A DNA stretch of 64,000 bases from Candidatus Giovannonibacteria bacterium. GTDB taxonomy: Bacteria > Patescibacteriota > Minisyncoccia > JACPKW01 > UBA11713. The notes beneath the pieces are model-generated. The model ran no database searches. It was given only the letters and a program-made list of their open reading frames with translations, and was not told the origin of the DNA. A program made the translations under genes and the position numbers. Shown in pieces: positions 31,151 through 46,735 of the stretch. Numbering within the stretch: position 1 is the stretch's first letter; every line of letters begins with the position of its first letter. Location of the stretch: positions 13,508-77,507 of the forward strand of contig JACPKW010000001.1 of the NCBI GenBank assembly GCA_016186825.1, given 5' to 3'.

Positions 31151-31450
31151 CCTCTCTTTTGTCCCGTTCTGCTCGGTACCGCCGAGCCGGAGCCGCCATT
31201 TTAGATTAGCGGCCAAAATCTATTCAACTAATCAACTACTAACTAGTCAACTAATTGACCGGCCTATTAAGGAGTGGCGTTTAAATTTTACCGAAGCAAA
31301 ACTAAACGAAATTTATCCTTAAAAGGAGAAAATCCACGACCAGCTTCCGCTAGCCGTGCCTTGTTACGACTTCGTCCTTGTCACCGAGCTTACCTTCGTC
31401 CGTTAAAAAACGACCTTCGGGTACTCCCGGCTTCCCTGACGTGACGGGCG

Positions 31451-32289
31451 ATTATCTTCTAGAAACTTAGAATTGATGTTCCCACGTAGTGTGCGGATTT
31501 CCCGCGCTACGCGAGCTCTAATGCATTGATGCTTTTATTTTATAGAGCTTAGCTAACCCCTGCTTGTTAAGATGTTGGCCGTTTTTTATCCTCAACATCA
31601 GATCACAGAATATCTCAAAGTCTCTTTTCTTTGATTTAAGCTGCAACTGATGAGTTTTAAAAAACGGAATAATGACATCTTCAAGATCCTTTCTATTGGA
31701 TACTTCATAGCGATAACAATTCTGGTGATTCTTACGTGTATCTTTCTGAAAATACACCTCGCCGCAACCGAAAAATTTTTTTAGCCTAAAGAGAATTTCA
31801 GAGTCTCTCTCAATAAGCTTTAAATAAAATTTCGGTTCAGCTCTAACCCATCTTTTTACATTTTTTGTAAATTCAGGGTTTTTAATGTAGGCGGTAAAAC
31901 TACCCTCGCCATCAACTAGTCCAATAATATATTCGGCATTAAGCATATTTAGAGTGGATCCTTTCCGGTTCTAGCCGGTACTATGATCCAGCTGACTTCT
32001 GACGCTGCGTAAGTTTCATTATATCTTATCTTGCGACAAAATAGCAGCGTCAGATCTCCACAGGTCATTTTATTTTCTATTCCAAGCATCCGAATTGGCC
32101 TTATTATGATCTTCCCTGCCCTCACCGCCAATTGCAGGTCGAACTGCCATTTATATATCGGCTGCTTTTTGCTTCCAGATCCTTCGCTTGCCGCTTCACA
32201 GCGGCAAACTATCTTTCGGCTATGCTCTTTGACGAGAAGAGAAATGGATTTTAACCATTCAGAAAATAAAACTGCTGCGCGCTTTTATT
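31451..32289 (-). mobile_element. intron-like insertion 1 in the 16S gene (near E. coli position 1391) carrying a LAGLIDADG ORF
   Basis: The 16S sequence stops after ...CTTGTACTCAC and resumes CGCCCGTCACG 839 bp later. Conserved rRNA flanks are intact on both sides. Confidence 0.65.
31518..31946 (-). CDS. LAGLIDADG homing endonuclease (single-motif)
   Basis: 142 aa. The N-terminal IIGLVDGEGSF is the LAGLIDADG motif. Encoded inside the 16S insertion on the same strand as the rRNA. Confidence 0.75.
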   Translation of the reverse strand: MLNAEYIIGLVDGEGSFTAYIKNPEFTKNVKRWVRAEPKFYLKLIERDSEILFRLKKFFGCGEVYFQKDTRKNHQNCYRYEVSNRKDLEDVIIPFFKTHQLQLKSKKRDFEIFCDLMLRIKNGQHLNKQGLAKLYKIKASMH

Positions 32290-32714
32290 GTGAGTACAAG
32301 ACTCGAGAACGTATTCACCGCGGCATAGCTGATCCGCGATTACTAGCGATTCCAGCTTCATGAGGTCGAGTTTCAGACCTCAATCCGAACTGAGCTCACC
32401 TTTGATGAGATTGGCTCCGCCTTACGGCATCGCGACCCATTGTAGTGAGCATTGTAGCATGTGTGTAGCCCAGGGCATCAGAGGGTCATGCTGACCTGGC
32501 GTCATCCCCGCCTTCCTCCCCCTATACGGAGGCAGTCTCGTCTGACACTTATAACAGACGATAAGGGTTGCGTTCGTTACCCCACTTAAGGGAACAGCTC
32601 AAGCCACGAACTGACGACGGCCATGCAACACCTGTGTAAGCGTCCTTGTGAGACATTTTTTCTTTCGAAAAAATTTCGCTTACATTTCAAGCCCTGGTGA
32701 GGTTCTTCGTTTAC

Positions 32715-32749
<35 letters not shown>

Positions 32750-32896
32750 AGTCCCCGTCTATTCCTTTGAGTTTTAATCTTGCGATCGTACTTCCCAGGC
32801 GGCAGGCTTAACGCGTTAGCTTACGGCTCCCGAAGGGTCGATACTTCGGATGCCTAGCCTGCATCGTTTAGGGCGTGGACTACAAGGGTATCTACA

Positions 32897-33593
32897 AATT
32901 TGTTGCTAACAACAAATTTGAAATTTTCAATTTTACAATTTCCAATTTTCAAAATGTTGTAGGGCAAGACATTTCTGCTTGTCTCTCTGCATCGCTGCAG
33001 AGTTCAGACTATATCATACGAGCACTTTGAGAAGCGGACGTCGTTAGACATCCGGACTTCAAAGTGCTCGCCTCGGCGTATAGTCGTTGAGGGGAATTAG
33101 ACTGGGATAAAACGACTCACCTCATAAAGGTTTCTGCCAATAACTCGATCTCCGCCAGCTTCGATGTTCTTGATAAATTCAGCCAAATCCGCTTTCGCAA
33201 GATCGTCGGACTCCTGTTCGATGCATTCAACTATGCTGCGGTTCTTGTTTTCTATATCAAGTATAGCGAGATAGTTCATTTTCTACTCCTTTCTTAATTC
33301 TTCCCTGCTGGTTATCCGCACCAAAACATTTTTACTCTTGCAAGTAGTTTTGGATACACCGGACTTTCCAGCATATAGCTCCCGCCTCGGCTCACGCCTC
33401 GACGGGATTCTCAATTTTGCAGCCAACATGCGTTGGGCAAAATTGGAACAAGTTTTTTATCCTCGTCCGCCAGTTAGCGGATTCGAGGGGACTAGTTTTC
33501 CGCCGATACCCTCGGCGGCCACTGCACAGCAGTAAAATCTCCAATTTGAAAATTGAAAATTGTAAATTGAAAATTTCGCTGCCATGCAGCGGG
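32897..33593 (-). mobile_element. intron-like insertion 2 in the 16S gene (within the GGATTA|GATACCC block, near E. coli position 788)
   Basis: About 697 bp interrupt a universally conserved block. The insertion termini carry complementary AT-rich repeats (AAATTTGAAATTTTCAATTTTACAATTTCC at 32921-32950 and GAAAATTGAAAATTGTAAATTGAAAATTTC at 33549-33578) that could pair the intron ends. Confidence 0.55.
33097..33279 (-). CDS. small acidic ORF inside 16S insertion 2, preceded by a strong SD
   Basis: 60 aa. The minus-strand upstream sequence reads GAATTAAGAAAGGAGTAGAAA-ATG, so the SD AAAGGAG lies 6 nt from the start. No recognised motif. Confidence 0.35.
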   Translation of the reverse strand: MNYLAILDIENKNRSIVECIEQESDDLAKADLAEFIKNIEAGGDRVIGRNLYEVSRFIPV

Positions 33594-33920
33594 TTAATCC
33601 TTTTTGATCCCCACGCTTTCGTGTTTCAGGGTCAGGAATGCCCCAGCAAATTGCCTTCGCCTTTGGTGTTCCCCTAGATATCAACGGATTTCACCCCTAC
33701 ACCTAGAGTTCCATTTGCCTCTGGCACCCTCCGAGCTCGGCCGTTTCCCCGCCAGCTTCAGGGTTGAGCCCTGAAATTTAAACGGAGACTAACCGTGCCC
33801 CCTACACACCCTTTACGCCCAATAAATCCGGATAACGCTCGGGCTCCTCGTCTTACCGCGGCTGCTGGCACGAGGTTAGCAAGCCCTTATTCCTGCGGTA
33901 CCGTCAGAGTTAGAGCTGTG

Positions 33921-34148
33921 AAGAGACAAGTTTTTTTCCTTTCTACTTGCCTCGTATTTTCCTTATTGGATAAGGACTATTGAAAATATATTTGGGGTTG
34001 TCATTTTTGATTCTTATGAATCTCCCAGGGACTTCATCTGATGTTGCTTCAAATTCTTTTGTAACTCTTTCCCCGGTTTTTTGATTTACCCCGCGCACTA
34101 TATACAAATAGCGCTGATATTCTCTATTTAACATTTTAAATATCTCCT
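33921..34148 (-). other. insertion of about 228 nt in the loop of the 16S V3 hairpin (helix 17), intervening-sequence-like
   Basis: Complementary stems GAGTTAGAGCTGTG (33907-33920) and CACAGCTCCAACTC (34149-34162) flank about 228 nt where E. coli has about 35 nt. Confidence 0.5.
33943..34134 (-). CDS. small basic ORF (63 aa) inside the 16S V3 insertion, preceded by an SD
   Basis: MLNREYQRYLYIVRGVNQKTGERVTKEFEATSDEVPGRFIRIKNDNPKYIFNSPYPIRKIRGK. The upstream minus-strand sequence is GTGAGGAGATATTT-ATG (GGAG 7 nt from the start). The longer ORF-track version (to 34299) runs into conserved rRNA and is rejected. Confidence 0.35.
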   Translation of the reverse strand: MLNREYQRYLYIVRGVNQKTGERVTKEFEATSDEVPGRFIRIKNDNPKYIFNSPYPIRKIRGK

Positions 34149-34626
34149 CACAGCTCCAACTCTTCTTCTCGCAGAAAAGCGGTTTACGCTCCGAAGAGCT
34201 TCTTCCCGCACGCGGCGTCGCTCGATCAGGCTTTCGCCCATTGTCGAATGTTCTTGACTGCAGCCACCCGTAGGTGTATGGACCGTGTCGCAGTTCCATT
34301 GGTGGGGATCAAGCTCTCACTTCCCCTAGCCGTCATAGCCTTGGTAGGCCATTACCCTACCAACAAGCTGATAGCCCGCAGGCCTTTCCCAGAGCCTATC
34401 GCTAGATTTACTCGGCACCTTCCAAACTTCGTGTAATTCGCTCGACACAAAGTCTCGAAGGTGCCGAGACTATCGGGAATTAGCTAACCTTTCGGCTAGT
34501 TATGCCCGTCTCTGGGGTAAGTTCCTACGTGTTACTACCCCGTCTGCCACTGAACATCTAAATCCGTCGCATTGATATAATCTCAACTCCTTCAAAAGAT
34601 GTTCCGTTCGACTTGCATGCCTTATC

Positions 34627-34666
<40 letters not shown>

Positions 34667-35068
34667 TTTGAATTGCTCACGCATTGCGCGAGCAAATTTT
34701 GAACGGGACAAAAGAGAGTAGTTATAACTTTCTTTTGTCACAAACTTTTCACCCGCTTAAGTATTGTCTTAAACAATTCCTTGCGGGTTGTGTGTCCCGA
34801 TTTTGCTTCTGCAAAGCAGAAATGCAAAATCGAGGATCCCCGATTTTCATTTATGAAAATCGGGACATGTTTTTGATATTCTTTTTTCAACGTTCTGTCG
34901 ATCTGAATATTCTCTGTAAACAAACCCGCAACTGCCTTCACATAAAAACAGTTGCGGACTTGTTTATTTTTCAAATAAATTTTTAGGGCTGTTTACATAA
35001 GTTTTCGAATTAATTCTAAGTCCAATGTCCATTATATGGTTCCTGCAAAGCTTGTCAACCGGCCGATT

Positions 35069-35773
35069 CTATCTCCTGTGAGCATCCCGCCAGAGCGCGA
35101 TTTTTTTATGATCCCCCGAAAGAAGGACTGGCGGAACCTTATACTTCCTTCCATGCCATTTTAGAACTTCAGGCCTTGTGTAATGAGGATATTCCAAGTC
35201 AGTTTTCAGTTGATAGTTTTTAGTTTTTAGTTTGGGGCCAAAACTTTCTTCAGCAAGCGATTCTTCTTTAAGCACCCCAGGAATAAGACGCACAAGCGCG
35301 GAAACAAACACCATAGCCCCGATATCACCGTCAGTCATAATATAGGGCCCGATTGAAATTTCCTCTGCGCGCAAAATTTTTTTGACGCGCTCATCAATTC
35401 CTTCATACCGTCCCGAAATTAAAATGAAGCGATTATATTTTTCAGACCAGTCATACGCAATTTTCTGGTTGAATTGTTTCCCCTTCGCCGAAAACAAAAT
35501 AATTTTTGTACGCAGCCCCACGGATTTTTTTTTTAAAGAAGAAACAGTGCGTAAAATTGGCTCGGCTTGAAGAACCATTCCTGCGCCTCCCCCAAACGGG
35601 CGGTCATCAACCTTTTTATGTTTGTCGCGTGTAAAATCTCGCAAATTCCAAATTTTAATCTCCGTTTTTTTCTTTTCTACCGCGCGCTTAATAATCGATT
35701 CTGAAAAATATGAATCAAAAATTTTCGGAAAAATTGTAATGATATCAAAACGAATTTTTGCCATGAATTTCAT
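35069..35773 (-). CDS. trmD: tRNA (guanine37-N1)-methyltransferase
   Basis: 234 aa. RFDIITIFPKIF, SPOUT-class knot motifs, GGGAGMVL and GRYEGIDER. Confidence 0.9.
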   Translation of the reverse strand: MKFMAKIRFDIITIFPKIFDSYFSESIIKRAVEKKKTEIKIWNLRDFTRDKHKKVDDRPFGGGAGMVLQAEPILRTVSSLKKKSVGLRTKIILFSAKGKQFNQKIAYDWSEKYNRFILISGRYEGIDERVKKILRAEEISIGPYIMTDGDIGAMVFVSALVRLIPGVLKEESLAEESFGPKLKTKNYQLKTDLEYPHYTRPEVLKWHGRKYKVPPVLLSGDHKKIALWRDAHRR

Positions 35774-46042: not shown

Positions 46043-46735
46043 TCACTCCCAGCCCTGCGCTTTTAGGCCGATTTCCGCCGCCTGCTGTTGCGCTTCCTGT
46101 TTGGACGGCCCCTCGCCTTCCCCGATTAACTTTTCTCCAATATAGACGCCCACCACGAAATGTTTGTTGTGATCGGGCCCCCATTCTTTCAGCACCTCAT
46201 ATGTCGGGGTAACGCCCGATATTTCCTGCGCGCGTTCCTGAAACAAGCTTTTTGCGTCACGGAATAATTTTTTTTCTAAGACTTCCTGCATCTTCGTAAG
46301 CAAGCTTTTTTCTATAAAATCCTTGGATACTTCGTAGCCCTGATCAAGATAAATTGCCCCGATTAAAGCCTCGAAAGCATTCGCAAGAATATACTGCCGC
46401 GCGCGCCCGACGTCTTTCGCCTCGCCGCGCGAAAGCAAAATAAAATCATTCATTCCAAGCTCGCGCGCAACTTCAGAAAGCATATTAGCGTTTACCAAGG
46501 CCGCGCGAAAGCTTGTGAGCTCGCCCTCGGGCTTATCGGGGAAAATTTTATAAAGATGCTCGGTCACAATTAATTCTAAAACAGCGTCCCCCAAAAATTC
46601 GAGTCGCTCATTTTGCCCCACATCCCATGACGGATTCTCGTTCAAATACGAACGATGCGTGAATGCCTCTTTCAAAAGCCTCGCATCTTTAAATTTAAAA
46701 TTAATTTTTTCTTCAAACTCCGACAAATCTTTCAT
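46043..46735 (-). CDS. rnc: ribonuclease III
   Basis: 230 aa. The RNase III signature ERLEFLGDAVLELIV, plus a C-terminal dsRBD. Confidence 0.85.
   Translation of the reverse strand: MKDLSEFEEKINFKFKDARLLKEAFTHRSYLNENPSWDVGQNERLEFLGDAVLELIVTEHLYKIFPDKPEGELTSFRAALVNANMLSEVARELGMNDFILLSRGEAKDVGRARQYILANAFEALIGAIYLDQGYEVSKDFIEKSLLTKMQEVLEKKLFRDAKSLFQERAQEISGVTPTYEVLKEWGPDHNKHFVVGVYIGEKLIGEGEGPSKQEAQQQAAEIGLKAQGWE

What the first reader, a model, noticed from the sequence alone, without database searches (positions are those of the whole stretch)
33921..34148. Insertion of about 228 nt in the 16S V3 hairpin loop encoding an SD-preceded 63-aa basic protein; a second SD-preceded small ORF (60 aa, acidic) in insertion 2
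Helix-17 stems GAGTTAGAGCTGTG and CACAGCTCCAACTC flank about 228 nt where about 35 nt are expected. Inside, on the rRNA-sense strand, is an ORF (33943-34134) for a Lys/Arg-rich 63-aa protein, preceded by GGAG at the ideal distance. Insertion 2 likewise has a 60-aa ORF (33097-33279) with AAAGGAG 6 nt upstream. rRNA intervening sequences that are excised by RNase III and sometimes encode proteins (for example the S23p family in 23S intervening sequences) are known. A basic peptide encoded in a 16S intervening sequence would be a new variant. It could be a ribosome-associated or RNA-binding protein, or a homing or maturation factor.
Basis: partly seen in the sequence, partly recalled or inferred. 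Interest (0 to 1): 0.55.

Follow-up and report, generated by a model that had tools for sequence, protein, structure and literature searches.

The report
Real small gene inside 16S hairpin
A candidate-phyla-radiation bacterium carries, in a stem-closed insertion at the tip of 16S rRNA helix 17, an intact 63-residue gene from a rare conserved protein family whose other members lie outside rRNA; this adds a new passenger gene to the already known class of rRNA insertions, whereas the second small ORF is an unverified orphan inside a group I intron.

Summary
A 16S rRNA gene of a Candidatus Giovannonibacteria genome lies on the minus strand. At the apex of helix 17 (V3) it has a 256-nt insertion closed by a 21-bp stem.

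The 63-aa ORF inside it is not fortuitous:
- Exhaustive HMMER found four small homologues (47-54% identity).
- Three of them, with DNA available, lie outside rRNA: upstream of a sigma-70 gene, downstream of rpsG, and downstream of a response regulator.
- The family shows third-position divergence and dN/dS 0.24.
- It folds confidently (pLDDT 90) as a basic beta-beta-alpha-beta-beta domain.
- It has no Pfam, NCBIfam or PDB relative.

A related 16S has the site empty. Another has a GIY-YIG nuclease gene in a stem-closed insertion at exactly the same position.

"Insertion 2" is not an RNase III intervening sequence. It is a 702-nt group I intron after E. coli position 788, homologous to an ORF-less 374-nt intron in relatives. 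Its 60-aa acidic ORF sits in loop L6, has no homologue, and its length is unremarkable by chance (22% of shuffles).

A third insertion, at position ~1400, carries a LAGLIDADG gene.

The phenomenon is known in CPR bacteria; the cargo family is new. Excision, translation and function are untested.

The parts
31322..34672 (-). 16S rRNA gene, 3351 nt, interrupted by three large insertions and by small V1 and V2 expansions (37 nt each)
   Evidence: Rfam RF00177, 1177 bits. The real 3' part (AAGTCGTAACAAGGCA ... GGATTTTCTCCTTT) lies at 31322-31450.
33907..34162 (-). Intervening sequence at the apex of helix 17 (V3), including its closing stem GAGUUGGAGCUGUGAGGAGA / UCUCUUCACAGCUCUAACUC
   Evidence: 243 nt against 6 in the Rfam model. 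Arms of 21 nt, 90% complementary. The fold has z = -8.3 with the stem and z = -3.8 for the interior alone. The relative L009 has only CGCAAG at this point.
33943..34134 (-). ORF-A: 63 aa, pI 10.1, member of a rare conserved small-protein family, predicted beta-beta-alpha-beta-beta fold
   Evidence: Homologues P0003, P0009, P0005 and P0008. Coding signature and dN/dS 0.24. AF2 pLDDT 90.1. Codon-usage log-likelihood 0.126 per codon. Shuffle p = 0.002.
34143..34147 (-). Shine-Dalgarno-like GGAGA, 9 nt upstream of the ORF-A ATG and base-paired inside the closing stem
   Evidence: Sequence and MFE structure. It is complementary to the UCUCC at the 3' end of this 16S.
32895..33596 (-). Group I intron (702 nt) between E. 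coli 16S positions 788 and 789. The 5' exon ends ...GGAU and the intron ends ...AAAUUUG (omega-G).
   Evidence: RF00028 below threshold, 32.2 bits, E 2.6e-6, with R- and S-like core elements. Homology to the 63-bit ORF-less intron at the same site in L010/L011. The site is empty in L009.
33097..33279 (-). ORF-B: 60 aa, pI 4.45, an orphan ORF that fills loop L6 of the group I intron
   Evidence: Only a self hit. No Pfam, PHROG or PADLOC hit. No similarity to LAGLIDADG proteins. Length reached in 22% of shuffles. Codon-usage log-likelihood 0.233 and GC1/GC2/GC3 of 0.54/0.28/0.46, both gene-like.
33286..33292 (-). AAAGGAG Shine-Dalgarno-like motif, 6 nt upstream of ORF-B
   Evidence: Sequence. 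Seven nucleotides are complementary to the 16S 3' end UCUCCUUU.
31451..32289 (-). Third insertion, at E. coli position ~1400, with a LAGLIDADG_1 homing-endonuclease ORF (31518-31946, 142 aa) and a weak group II D1-D4 match
   Evidence: The 16S sequence breaks at CTTGTACTCAC|AATAAA and resumes at CGCCCGTCA. PF00961, E 1.6e-14. RF01998, 27.6 bits.
46043..46735 (-). rnc gene (RNase III catalytic domain plus dsRBD), the enzyme expected to cut the closing stem of the intervening sequence
   Evidence: PF14622 E 1.9e-39, PF00636 E 1.8e-29, PF00035 E 3.6e-17.

Best explanation
The V3 feature is an rRNA intervening sequence: a 256-nt stem-loop grafted onto the tip of helix 17 of the 16S rRNA gene of a Giovannonibacteria (CPR) bacterium. 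Its loop is almost entirely filled by an intact protein-coding gene, ORF-A. ORF-A belongs to a rare, unnamed family of basic proteins of 63-69 aa with a beta-beta-alpha-beta-beta fold. The other known members are ordinary free-standing genes.

Shown: the anatomy; the empty site and the alternative cargo in relatives; homology; purifying selection in the family; the predicted fold; and the presence of rnc.

Inferred:
1. The insertion is transcribed as part of the pre-16S rRNA.
2. RNase III cuts the 21-bp stem, removing the insertion from the rRNA, as reported for CPR insertions and for classical intervening sequences.
3. The GGAGA ribosome-binding site is occluded in the stem of the precursor and becomes available only in the released RNA of about 220 nt, which can then be translated.

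Most speculative: the protein binds nucleic acid or a component of the expression machinery. This rests only on its basic charge and C-terminal tail, and on homologues lying next to rpsG and a sigma-70 gene.

The helix-17 tip seems to be a recurrent landing site for stem-closed gene cassettes in this lineage. Insertion 2 is a separate element, a group I intron after position 788 whose L6 loop holds ORF-B, a possible but unverified orphan gene.
For: Anatomy.

Identity of the host: NCBI names for the two ORFs are Candidatus Giovannonibacteria.

ORF-A homologues. HMMER against 1.84 billion representatives found P0003 (E 7e-12) and P0005 (E 9e-7). A profile search added P0008, and a cluster look-up added P0009. 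L007, L008 and L012 carry the homologues outside rRNA. L007 and L008 have no Rfam rRNA match. Neighbours are a sigma-70 gene, a response regulator and ribosomal protein S7.

Coding signature. Identity by codon position is 0.57-0.59, 0.63-0.73 and 0.36-0.43, and more than half of the identical residues use different codons. Between P0009 and P0008, dN is 0.16, dS 0.67 and dN/dS 0.24. ORF-A keeps 20 of the 23 residues on which the other three homologues agree.

Fold: AF2 pLDDT 90.1, pTM 0.71. Charge: pI 9.6-10.1 in all members. Chance: ORF length p = 0.002; codon usage is host-like.

Relatives. The site is empty in L009, and holds a GIY-YIG gene in a 20-bp-stem insertion at the same position in L010/L011.

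Other support. rnc is present. Only the rRNA copy has complementary flanks (z -6.4 against about 0 for the free-standing copies). Literature: CPR rRNA insertions carry coding regions and are removed from transcripts; non-intron insertions at variable sites carry GIY-YIG or IVP genes (PMC11270868).
Against: - There is no transcript, cleavage or protein evidence. The insertion could stay in the mature rRNA as an expansion segment.
- The SD is paired in the stem, and RNase III cleavage could remove or truncate it.
- In the best-studied analogue, the Coxiella 23S intervening sequence, the RNA is rapidly degraded and the S23p ORF is apparently not translated in vivo (PMC4990558).
- Only one rRNA-embedded copy of the family is known, so selection on this particular copy cannot be measured. 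It might be a recent, silent passenger.
- The GC content of ORF-A (35%) is below that of the host genes (42%), and its codon score is at the 16th percentile of true-gene segments.
- The neighbourhood argument rests on three loci.
Confidence: 0.6

Rival explanations
1. Silent passenger. ORF-A is a real gene by descent that was captured into, or moved into, the helix-17 intervening sequence. It is not translated there. The element persists because excision makes it harmless, and the ORF is intact only because the capture is recent.
For: The SD is sequestered in the closing stem. The interior RNA is itself more structured than shuffles (z -3.8). The Coxiella precedent is an untranslated, decaying S23p ORF whose RNA is degraded rapidly. 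No second rRNA-embedded copy was found among 15 billion proteins or in the genome, metagenome and viral scans. The GC content of ORF-A is lower than that of the host genes.
Against: ORF-A keeps 20 of 23 family-conserved residues and is no more divergent than the free-standing member P0005. Its start, stop and SD are intact. In the predicted fold the AUG lies in a hairpin loop. Codon usage is above 98% of spurious ORFs.
Confidence: 0.25
2. Retained expansion segment. The insertion is not excised but stays as an extra arm on the solvent side of the 30S body, and the ORF is irrelevant to its maintenance.
For: Helix 17 is peripheral and varies in length among bacteria (established knowledge of 16S structure). 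The whole insertion is strongly structured (z -8.3). Nothing here shows cleavage.
Against: CPR rRNA insertions were reported as removed from transcripts (Brown et al., as cited in PMC11270868). A closing duplex of 20-21 bp is an RNase III-type substrate, and rnc is present. The loop sequence is a conserved coding sequence rather than a conserved RNA. A relative carries a completely different cargo at the same site.
Confidence: 0.1
3. Chance ORF or assembly artefact. The ORF is fortuitous in an AT-rich insertion, or the insertion is a mis-assembly of a MAG.
For: The window comes from a metagenome-assembled genome. Small ORFs are common in AT-rich sequence. ORF-B-sized ORFs arise in 22% of shuffles of insertion 2.
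Against: For ORF-A the shuffle p is 0.002, and there are four independent homologues with a coding substitution pattern and a confident fold. The insertion is bracketed by a perfect-register 21-bp inverted repeat exactly at a helix apex and at the same nucleotide position as the insertion in L010/L011, which a chimeric join would not produce.
Confidence: 0.03
4. For ORF-B only: it is a real orphan intron-encoded protein, for example a novel maturase-like or mobility factor, or the last remnant of a homing-endonuclease gene, in loop L6 of the group I intron.
For: It fills L6 exactly, from 12 nt after the P6 5' strand to the stop codon that abuts the P6 3' strand. Its 7-nt SD is complementary to the 16S 3' end. 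Its codon score of 0.233 is the median of true genes, and its GC1 > GC3 > GC2 pattern is gene-like. The homologous intron in L010/L011 has only a short L6 hairpin, so the extra ~215 nt needs an explanation.
Against: No homologue other than itself in the word-indexed search of 5.8 billion clusters. No family hit. No similarity to I-ShaI or to this genome's own LAGLIDADG protein. The ORF length is at chance level. Sixty acidic residues cannot form a known endonuclease fold.
Confidence: 0.4

Closest known systems
Insertion sequences in CPR (Patescibacteria) rRNA genes (Brown et al. 2015; Tsurumaki et al. 2024, PMC11270868)
   Same: The host is a CPR bacterium. There are several insertions of at least 100 nt in one 16S gene. 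They include a group I intron in a conserved site, a group-II-like insertion with a LAGLIDADG_1 gene at position ~1400 (their 16IS9), and a non-intron insertion in a variable helix carrying a sense-strand ORF. A relative has a GIY-YIG gene at the same helix-17 site, matching their finding that GIY-YIG genes sit in non-intron insertions at poorly conserved sites.
   Different: The annotated cargo families in that survey are LAGLIDADG_1-3, GIY-YIG and 23S_rRNA_IVP. ORF-A matches none of them. It belongs to an unnamed family whose other members are free-standing genes. By their criteria such an insertion would fall into the class 'no intron hit, no annotated ORF' (139 of 378 16S insertions).
RNase III-excised 23S rRNA intervening sequences carrying the S23p / 23S_rRNA_IVP gene (Leptospira, Coxiella; PMC4990558)
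   Same: A stem-closed insertion at a helix apex, containing a single small ORF on the rRNA-sense strand. The cargo family also has free-standing relatives (own knowledge for S23p). The host has a reduced genome and an rnc gene.
   Different: It lies in 16S helix 17 rather than 23S helix 25 or 45. The protein is a basic beta-beta-alpha-beta-beta domain of 63 aa, not a four-helix bundle of about 120 aa, and shows no Pfam PF05635 match. Excision is not demonstrated here.
GIY-YIG (UPF0213-type) gene in the helix-17 insertion of the related 16S genes L010/L011
   Different: No sequence relationship (hhalign probability 0.2%). ORF-A lacks the YIG motif and ends before the catalytic Glu and Asn would occur. 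The stems are not homologous.
Group I introns in SSU rRNA, for insertion 2 (ORF-less homologue in L010/L011; 16S introns of giant sulfur bacteria, Salman et al. 2012, cited in PMC13011429)
   Same: Insertion in the universally conserved 790 loop. U precedes the 5' splice site and G ends the intron. It has R/S (P7) core elements, P4-P6, P8 and P9. The ORF sits in a peripheral loop (L6).
   Different: It scores below the Rfam gathering threshold (32 against 50 bits). The P3 pairing was not found. It has about 150 nt of extra sequence between the 5' splice site and the guide sequence, and a helix of about 33 bp of AT-rich repeats joining its two ends. The ORF is not a known homing endonuclease.

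Membership tests
RNase III-type rRNA intervening sequence (V3 insertion) | Extra sequence at the apex of a variable rRNA helix that is absent from close relatives | tested here: met
   243 nt against 6 in the Rfam model. L009 (88-93% identical 16S) has CGCAAG at the same point.
RNase III-type rRNA intervening sequence (V3 insertion) | Long closing duplex (about two helical turns) formed by the ends of the insertion | tested here: met
   21-nt arms, 90% complementary. A stem of 20 bp or more in the MFE and centroid structures, z -8.3.
RNase III-type rRNA intervening sequence (V3 insertion) | Excision from the pre-rRNA by RNase III without religation (fragmented rRNA) | not testable with these tools
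   No transcript data. The rnc gene is present at 46043-46735. The literature reports removal of CPR insertions from transcripts.
CPR rRNA insertion with an annotated cargo (LAGLIDADG, GIY-YIG or 23S_rRNA_IVP), tested for ORF-A | ORF matches one of the Pfam families PF00961, PF03161, PF14528, PF01541 or PF05635 | tested here: not met
   No Pfam family at E up to 10 for ORF-A or any of its homologues. hhalign against a GIY-YIG alignment gave probability 0.2%.
23S_rRNA_IVP / S23p family (ORF-A) | Four-helix-bundle protein of about 110-130 aa | tested here: not met
   The AF2 model is beta-beta-alpha-beta-beta, 63 aa, pLDDT 90.
GIY-YIG nuclease (ORF-A) | GIY and YIG motifs, conserved Arg, and catalytic Glu and Asn in a domain of about 90 aa | tested here: not met
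   No PF01541 hit and no profile similarity. The protein ends after 63 residues. Only weak structural resemblances were found.
Group I intron (insertion 2) | Match to the RF00028 covariance model at the gathering score | tested here: not met
   32.2 bits against a threshold of 50, E 2.6e-6, full-length model alignment with R- and S-like elements.
Group I intron (insertion 2) | Homology to a bona fide group I intron at the same rRNA site | tested here: met
   L010/L011 have a 63-bit RF00028 match. Identity to the window's intron is 72% over P4-P6 and 91% over P7'-P9. The exon junctions are the same.
Group I intron (insertion 2) | U at the end of the 5' exon and G as the last intron nucleotide | tested here: met
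   ...AAAAAGGAU|UAACCC ... AAAUUUG|UAGAUACCC. The UA ambiguity in the boundaries allows this register, and L010 uses the same one.
Group I intron (insertion 2) | Complete P3-P9 core and self-splicing | tested here: inconclusive
   Candidates for P4-P6, P7, P8 and P9 were identified by eye. No convincing P3 was found. Splicing cannot be tested here.
LAGLIDADG homing endonuclease (ORF-B) | LAGLIDADG domain (Pfam), or similarity to known LAGLIDADG homing endonucleases from CPR bacteria | tested here: not met
   No Pfam hit. No BLASTP alignment with I-ShaI or with the window's own LAGLIDADG_1 protein.
ORF-A small-protein family (unnamed) | Signature LNR[ED]YQR ... G.N.K ... EF..T.DE..GR ... P..F in a basic protein of 63-69 aa | tested here: met
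   Alignments A1 and A2 have 20 invariant columns. E-values are 7e-12 and 9e-7 in the single-sequence search and 1e-28 to 1e-34 in the profile search.

The most novel reading that the evidence does not exclude
ORF-A is a functional gene that the bacterium expresses from inside its only 16S rRNA. Processing of the pre-rRNA by RNase III would liberate a small mRNA whose ribosome-binding site is masked until cleavage, so synthesis of a basic protein that binds the ribosome or RNA polymerase would be tied to rRNA transcription. The family's other members sit next to rpsG and a sigma-70 gene. That would make it the first non-endonuclease, host-serving protein gene nested in a bacterial 16S rRNA, and a new small component of the expression machinery.
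Probability: 0.15. Interest if true: 0.75.

Novelty: new variant of a known kind. Interest (0 to 1): 0.45.

Why it matters
rRNA insertions are a hallmark of CPR/Patescibacteria. So far their protein cargo has been described only as homing endonucleases or the enigmatic IVP family, and about a third of the 16S insertions are filed as having no intron match and no annotated ORF.

This case shows that one such insertion holds an intact member of a conserved, foldable, previously unnamed small-protein family that also lives outside rRNA. It suggests two things:
1. The tip of helix 17 is a reusable docking site for different gene cassettes. In this lineage it is found empty, with a GIY-YIG gene, or with ORF-A.
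2. Un-annotated rRNA insertions may hide further small genes.

If the gene is expressed, it offers a tractable example of a protein-coding message released by rRNA processing. If it is not, it is a snapshot of gene capture by a selfish RNA element.

There is also a practical point. Genome annotation and 16S pipelines mis-handle this locus. The Rfam end of the gene is forced, NCBI calls a 118-aa read-through protein, and the 16S is 3.35 kb long.

Tried and rejected
1. ORF-A as a degenerate GIY-YIG nuclease. The idea came from the N-terminal 'YLYIV...G' hairpin and from the GIY-YIG gene at the same site in L010/L011. There was no Pfam hit, hhalign probability was 0.2%, and only weak structural echoes appeared. 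Rejected as a membership claim and kept as a faint lead.

3. ORF-B as a truncated LAGLIDADG gene ('NYLAILDIEN'). There was no BLASTP alignment to I-ShaI or to the window's own LAGLIDADG protein, and no Pfam hit. Rejected.

4. Insertion 2 as an RNase III intervening sequence. Rejected in favour of a group I intron.

5. The idea that free-standing homologues are also enclosed by stems, as in a mobile stem-loop cassette. Flank duplex z was about 0 for L007, L008 and L012, against -6.4 for the window. Rejected.

6. Searches that found nothing useful:
- the word-indexed protein search with ORF-A;
- protein-pattern scans of metagenome and viral contigs;
- a PDB sequence-profile search;
- NCBIfam, PHROGs and PADLOC;
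- a promoter scan upstream of the ORFs, which was at chance level.

7. The gap-pattern scan of species-representative genomes for V3 intervals of similar size. It returned six loci, none homologous to this insertion.

8. afdb50 was unavailable. The DNA of the Logan contig that carries P0003 was unavailable.
Full report
**What is there**

Rfam places a bacterial 16S rRNA on the minus strand (RF00177, 1177 bits). Relative to the model it has:
- small expansions in V1 and V2 (37 nt each);
- 243 nt where 6 are expected in the V3 hairpin (helix 17);
- 707 nt where 5 are expected in the helix-24 '790' loop.

The gene does not end at 32243 as Rfam reports. After CTTGTACTCAC (E. coli ~1400) the sequence departs and resumes with CGCCCGTCA at 31450, and it ends ...GGATTTTCTCCTTT at 31322. 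The gene is therefore 3351 nt long (31322-34672) and has three large insertions. NCBI names for the two ORFs identify the genome as Candidatus Giovannonibacteria, a CPR/Parcubacteria lineage.

**Check of the observation**

The quoted stems, the 228-nt interval 33921-34148, ORF-A (33943-34134, 63 aa), its GGAG 9 nt upstream, ORF-B (33097-33279, 60 aa) and its AAAGGAG 6 nt upstream are all as described.

The two arms pair over 21 nt (33906-33926 with 34143-34163, 90% complementary). The insertion folds with z = -8.3, or -3.8 for the interior alone. The GGAGA motif is itself part of the closing stem.

A sense ATG-ORF of at least 63 codons arises in 0.2% of dinucleotide shuffles of the V3 insertion. 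An ORF of at least 60 codons arises in 22% of shuffles of insertion 2.

**ORF-A is a real gene by descent**

The word-indexed search found nothing. The exhaustive HMMER search of 1.84 billion representatives found two small proteins: P0003 (67 aa, 54% identity, E 7e-12) and P0005 (63 aa, 51% identity, E 9e-7). It also found the NCBI 118-aa read-through call of ORF-A itself. Three further hits were repeat proteins with summed weak matches, which I regard as spurious. A profile search added P0008, and a cluster look-up added P0009.

The alignment has 20 invariant columns (LNR.YQR..Y...G.N.K...EF..T.DE..GR...P...F).

The homologues for which DNA is available are not in rRNA. L007 and L008 have no Rfam rRNA match.
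- L007: the gene has an AAGGAGG ribosome-binding site and ends 4 nt before a sigma-70 gene, between ruvA and uvrB.
- L008: it follows a histidine kinase and a response regulator.
- L012: it lies 126 nt downstream of rpsG.

The substitution pattern is that of a coding sequence:
- Identity by codon position is 0.57-0.59, 0.63-0.73 and 0.36-0.43. More than half of the identical residues use different codons, including AGA/CGG arginine switches.
- For the closer pair P0009/P0008, dN is 0.16, dS 0.67 and dN/dS 0.24.
- ORF-A keeps 20 of the 23 residues on which the other three agree, so it is no more degenerate than the free-standing P0005.
- Its codon usage scores 0.126 per codon. True-gene segments average 0.216 (sd 0.098) and spurious ORFs average -0.07; only 2% of spurious ORFs score higher.

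With only four sequences AlphaFold2 gives pLDDT 90.1 and pTM 0.71, against 58 without the alignment. The fold is beta-beta-alpha-beta-beta. All members are basic, with pI 9.6-10.1 and a Lys/Arg-rich C-terminal tail.

**What ORF-A is not**

There is no Pfam, NCBIfam, PHROG, PADLOC or PDB-sequence match. Fold searches give only generic small alpha/beta hits:
- Foldseek against the PDB: E 0.45 or worse.
- Foldseek against BFVD: E 0.07 or worse.

A GIY-YIG origin, which I suspected from the N-terminal hairpin, is not supported at profile level (hhalign probability 0.2%). The protein is also too short to contain the catalytic Glu and Asn.

**The site in relatives**

A lineage-specific 16S pattern retrieved three metagenome loci.
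- L009 (16S 88-93% identical) has neither insertion. At the helix-17 point it has six nucleotides, CGCAAG.
- L010 and L011 are identical to each other in the V3 region and across the intron, and their 16S is about 92% identical to the window's. At exactly the same point they carry a ~300-nt insertion closed by a 20-bp stem. Its sense ORF is a GIY-YIG protein of the UPF0213 type (PF01541, E 9e-14; PDB 1zg2 and 1ywl).

Within one lineage, then, the helix-17 apex is found empty, with a nuclease gene, or with ORF-A. This matches the survey of Tsurumaki et al. In that survey GIY-YIG genes lie in non-intron insertions at poorly conserved sites, and 139 of 378 16S insertions have no intron match and no annotated ORF (PMC11270868).

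Only the rRNA-embedded copy of the ORF-A family has complementary flanks (z -6.4, against about 0 for L007, L008 and L012). The stem therefore belongs to the rRNA context, not to the gene.

**Likely mechanism for the V3 element**

Shown: the anatomy, the coding status of the family, the fold, the alternative occupants of the site, and an rnc gene in the window (46043-46735).

Inferred:
1. The insertion is co-transcribed with the pre-16S rRNA.
2. RNase III cleaves the 21-bp duplex, as in classical intervening sequences. The cited literature reports that CPR insertions are removed from transcripts.
3. A ~220-nt RNA is released in which GGAGA can reach the ribosome. GGAGA is complementary to the UCUCC of this 16S 3' end. 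In the predicted fold the AUG lies in the loop of a small AU hairpin.

Speculative: the protein binds nucleic acid or part of the expression machinery. The only grounds are its charge and the rpsG and sigma-70 neighbours of homologues, from three loci.

The main rival is that the gene is a silent passenger, as argued for S23p in the Coxiella 23S intervening sequence.

**Insertion 2 is a group I intron**

A permissive Rfam scan gives RF00028 at 32.2 bits. This is below the threshold of 50, but E is 2.6e-6, and the match includes R-like UCAACGACUAUACG and S-like AUGAUAUAGUCU elements. A weaker match covers P4-P6.

L010/L011 have a 374-nt ORF-less intron at the same place that scores 63 bits. It aligns with the window's insertion over P4-P6 (72% identity) and P7'-P9 (91% identity).

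The junctions are ...AAAAAGGAU|intron...AAAAUG|UAGAUACCC in L010 and ...AAAAAGGAU|UAACCC...AAAUUUG|UAGAUACCC in the window. A UA shared by both ends makes the boundary ambiguous. In this register the 5' exon ends in U and the intron ends in G. The intron is therefore 32895-33596 (702 nt), between E. coli positions 788 and 789. That numbering is mine, taking GGAUUAGAUACCC as positions 785-797.

ORF-B fills L6, between GGGAA and UUCCC.
- For it: a 7-nt SD, a median gene-like codon score (0.233) and GC1 > GC3 > GC2.
- Against it: no homologue, no family hit, no similarity to LAGLIDADG proteins and a chance-level length.

I put the probability that ORF-B is a functional gene at about 0.4.

The intron also has unexplained features:
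- about 150 nt between the 5' splice site and the conserved guide-like GUUCC;
- an internal GAGGAU|AAAAAACUUGUUCC that mimics the exon-intron junction of L010;
- a helix of about 33 bp of AT-rich heptamer-like repeats joining its ends;
- no identifiable P3.

**Third insertion**

The segment 31451-32289 at position ~1400 carries a 142-aa LAGLIDADG_1 gene (PF00961, E 1.6e-14) and a weak group II D1-D4 match. This is the 16IS9 type described by Tsurumaki et al..

**Verdict**

ORF-A is a genuine, intact member of a new small-protein family housed in a helix-17 intervening sequence. ORF-B is an unverified orphan in a group I intron.

The kind of element is well known in CPR bacteria, so the novelty lies in the cargo and in the reuse of the site. 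I rate it a new variant of a known kind, interest 0.45. Expression, excision and function all remain to be shown.

Noticed in passing
window 31322-32289 (minus): The 16S gene continues about 920 nt beyond the Rfam end. An 839-nt insertion at E. coli position ~1400 (31451-32289) carries a 142-aa LAGLIDADG_1 gene (31518-31946) and a weak group II D1-D4 match (31958-32044). The Rfam alignment of model positions ~1400-1533 to 32243-32290 is forced.
   Followed up: yes
window 32895-33596 (minus): The group I intron has three odd features. About 150 nt downstream of the real 5' splice site, an internal GAGGAU|AAAAAACUUGUUCC mimics the exon-intron junction of the homologous intron in L010. A helix of about 33 bp built from AT-rich (UGAAAAU)-like repeats joins its 5' and 3' regions. 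GCCGAGGCG occurs as a direct repeat where a P3 pairing would be expected. Whether the intron still self-splices is unclear.
   Followed up: partly
L012:1-695 (ENA ERZ27276474): The ORF-A homologue P0009 lies 126 nt downstream of an rpsG gene whose last ~20 residues are replaced by unrelated sequence (the Pfam S7 match stops at profile position 128 of 148). L012 and L008 share 85% nucleotide identity only within the small CDS, and their flanks are unrelated. The identical protein P0003 appears on a Logan contig with a different upstream gene call. This may mean that the small gene moves between contexts.
   Followed up: partly
L007:182-1235: The homologue P0005 is separated by only 4 nt from a 285-aa sigma-70-family gene (regions 2, 3 and 4). 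The pair lies between ruvA and uvrB, which suggests co-translation with a sigma factor.
   Followed up: no
L005:4559-4943 (Candidatus Nealsonbacteria): Another CPR 16S has a V3 insertion of similar size. It is not homologous, and no relative of ORF-A or ORF-B was found in it. Its ends are AT-rich repeats (GAAAAT-type), similar in style to the AT-rich helix of the window's group I intron.
   Followed up: partly
L001-L004, L006 (Arenibacter, Mesorhizobium, two Vibrio, an alphaproteobacterial MAG): Non-CPR genomes in which the interval between GCCGCGTG and GTGCCAGCAGCCGCGGTAA is 306-366 nt instead of about 110 nt. These are possible 16S V3 intervening sequences outside the CPR.
   Followed up: no
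window 33943-34299 and 33097-33279: The GenBank annotation calls a 118-aa protein (HYW53_00295, MBI2609600.1) that reads from 16S sequence into ORF-A. It also calls ORF-B as HYW53_00290. In that record the interrupted 16S gene is evidently not masked as rRNA.
   Followed up: partly
window 46043-46735 (minus): A complete RNase III gene (catalytic domain plus dsRBD) lies 12 kb from the 16S gene.
   Followed up: yes
window 1-64000: No 23S or 5S rRNA gene was detected anywhere in the 64-kb window, so the 16S gene is unlinked from the other rRNA genes. TrmD is encoded just upstream of it (35069-35773, minus).
   Followed up: no
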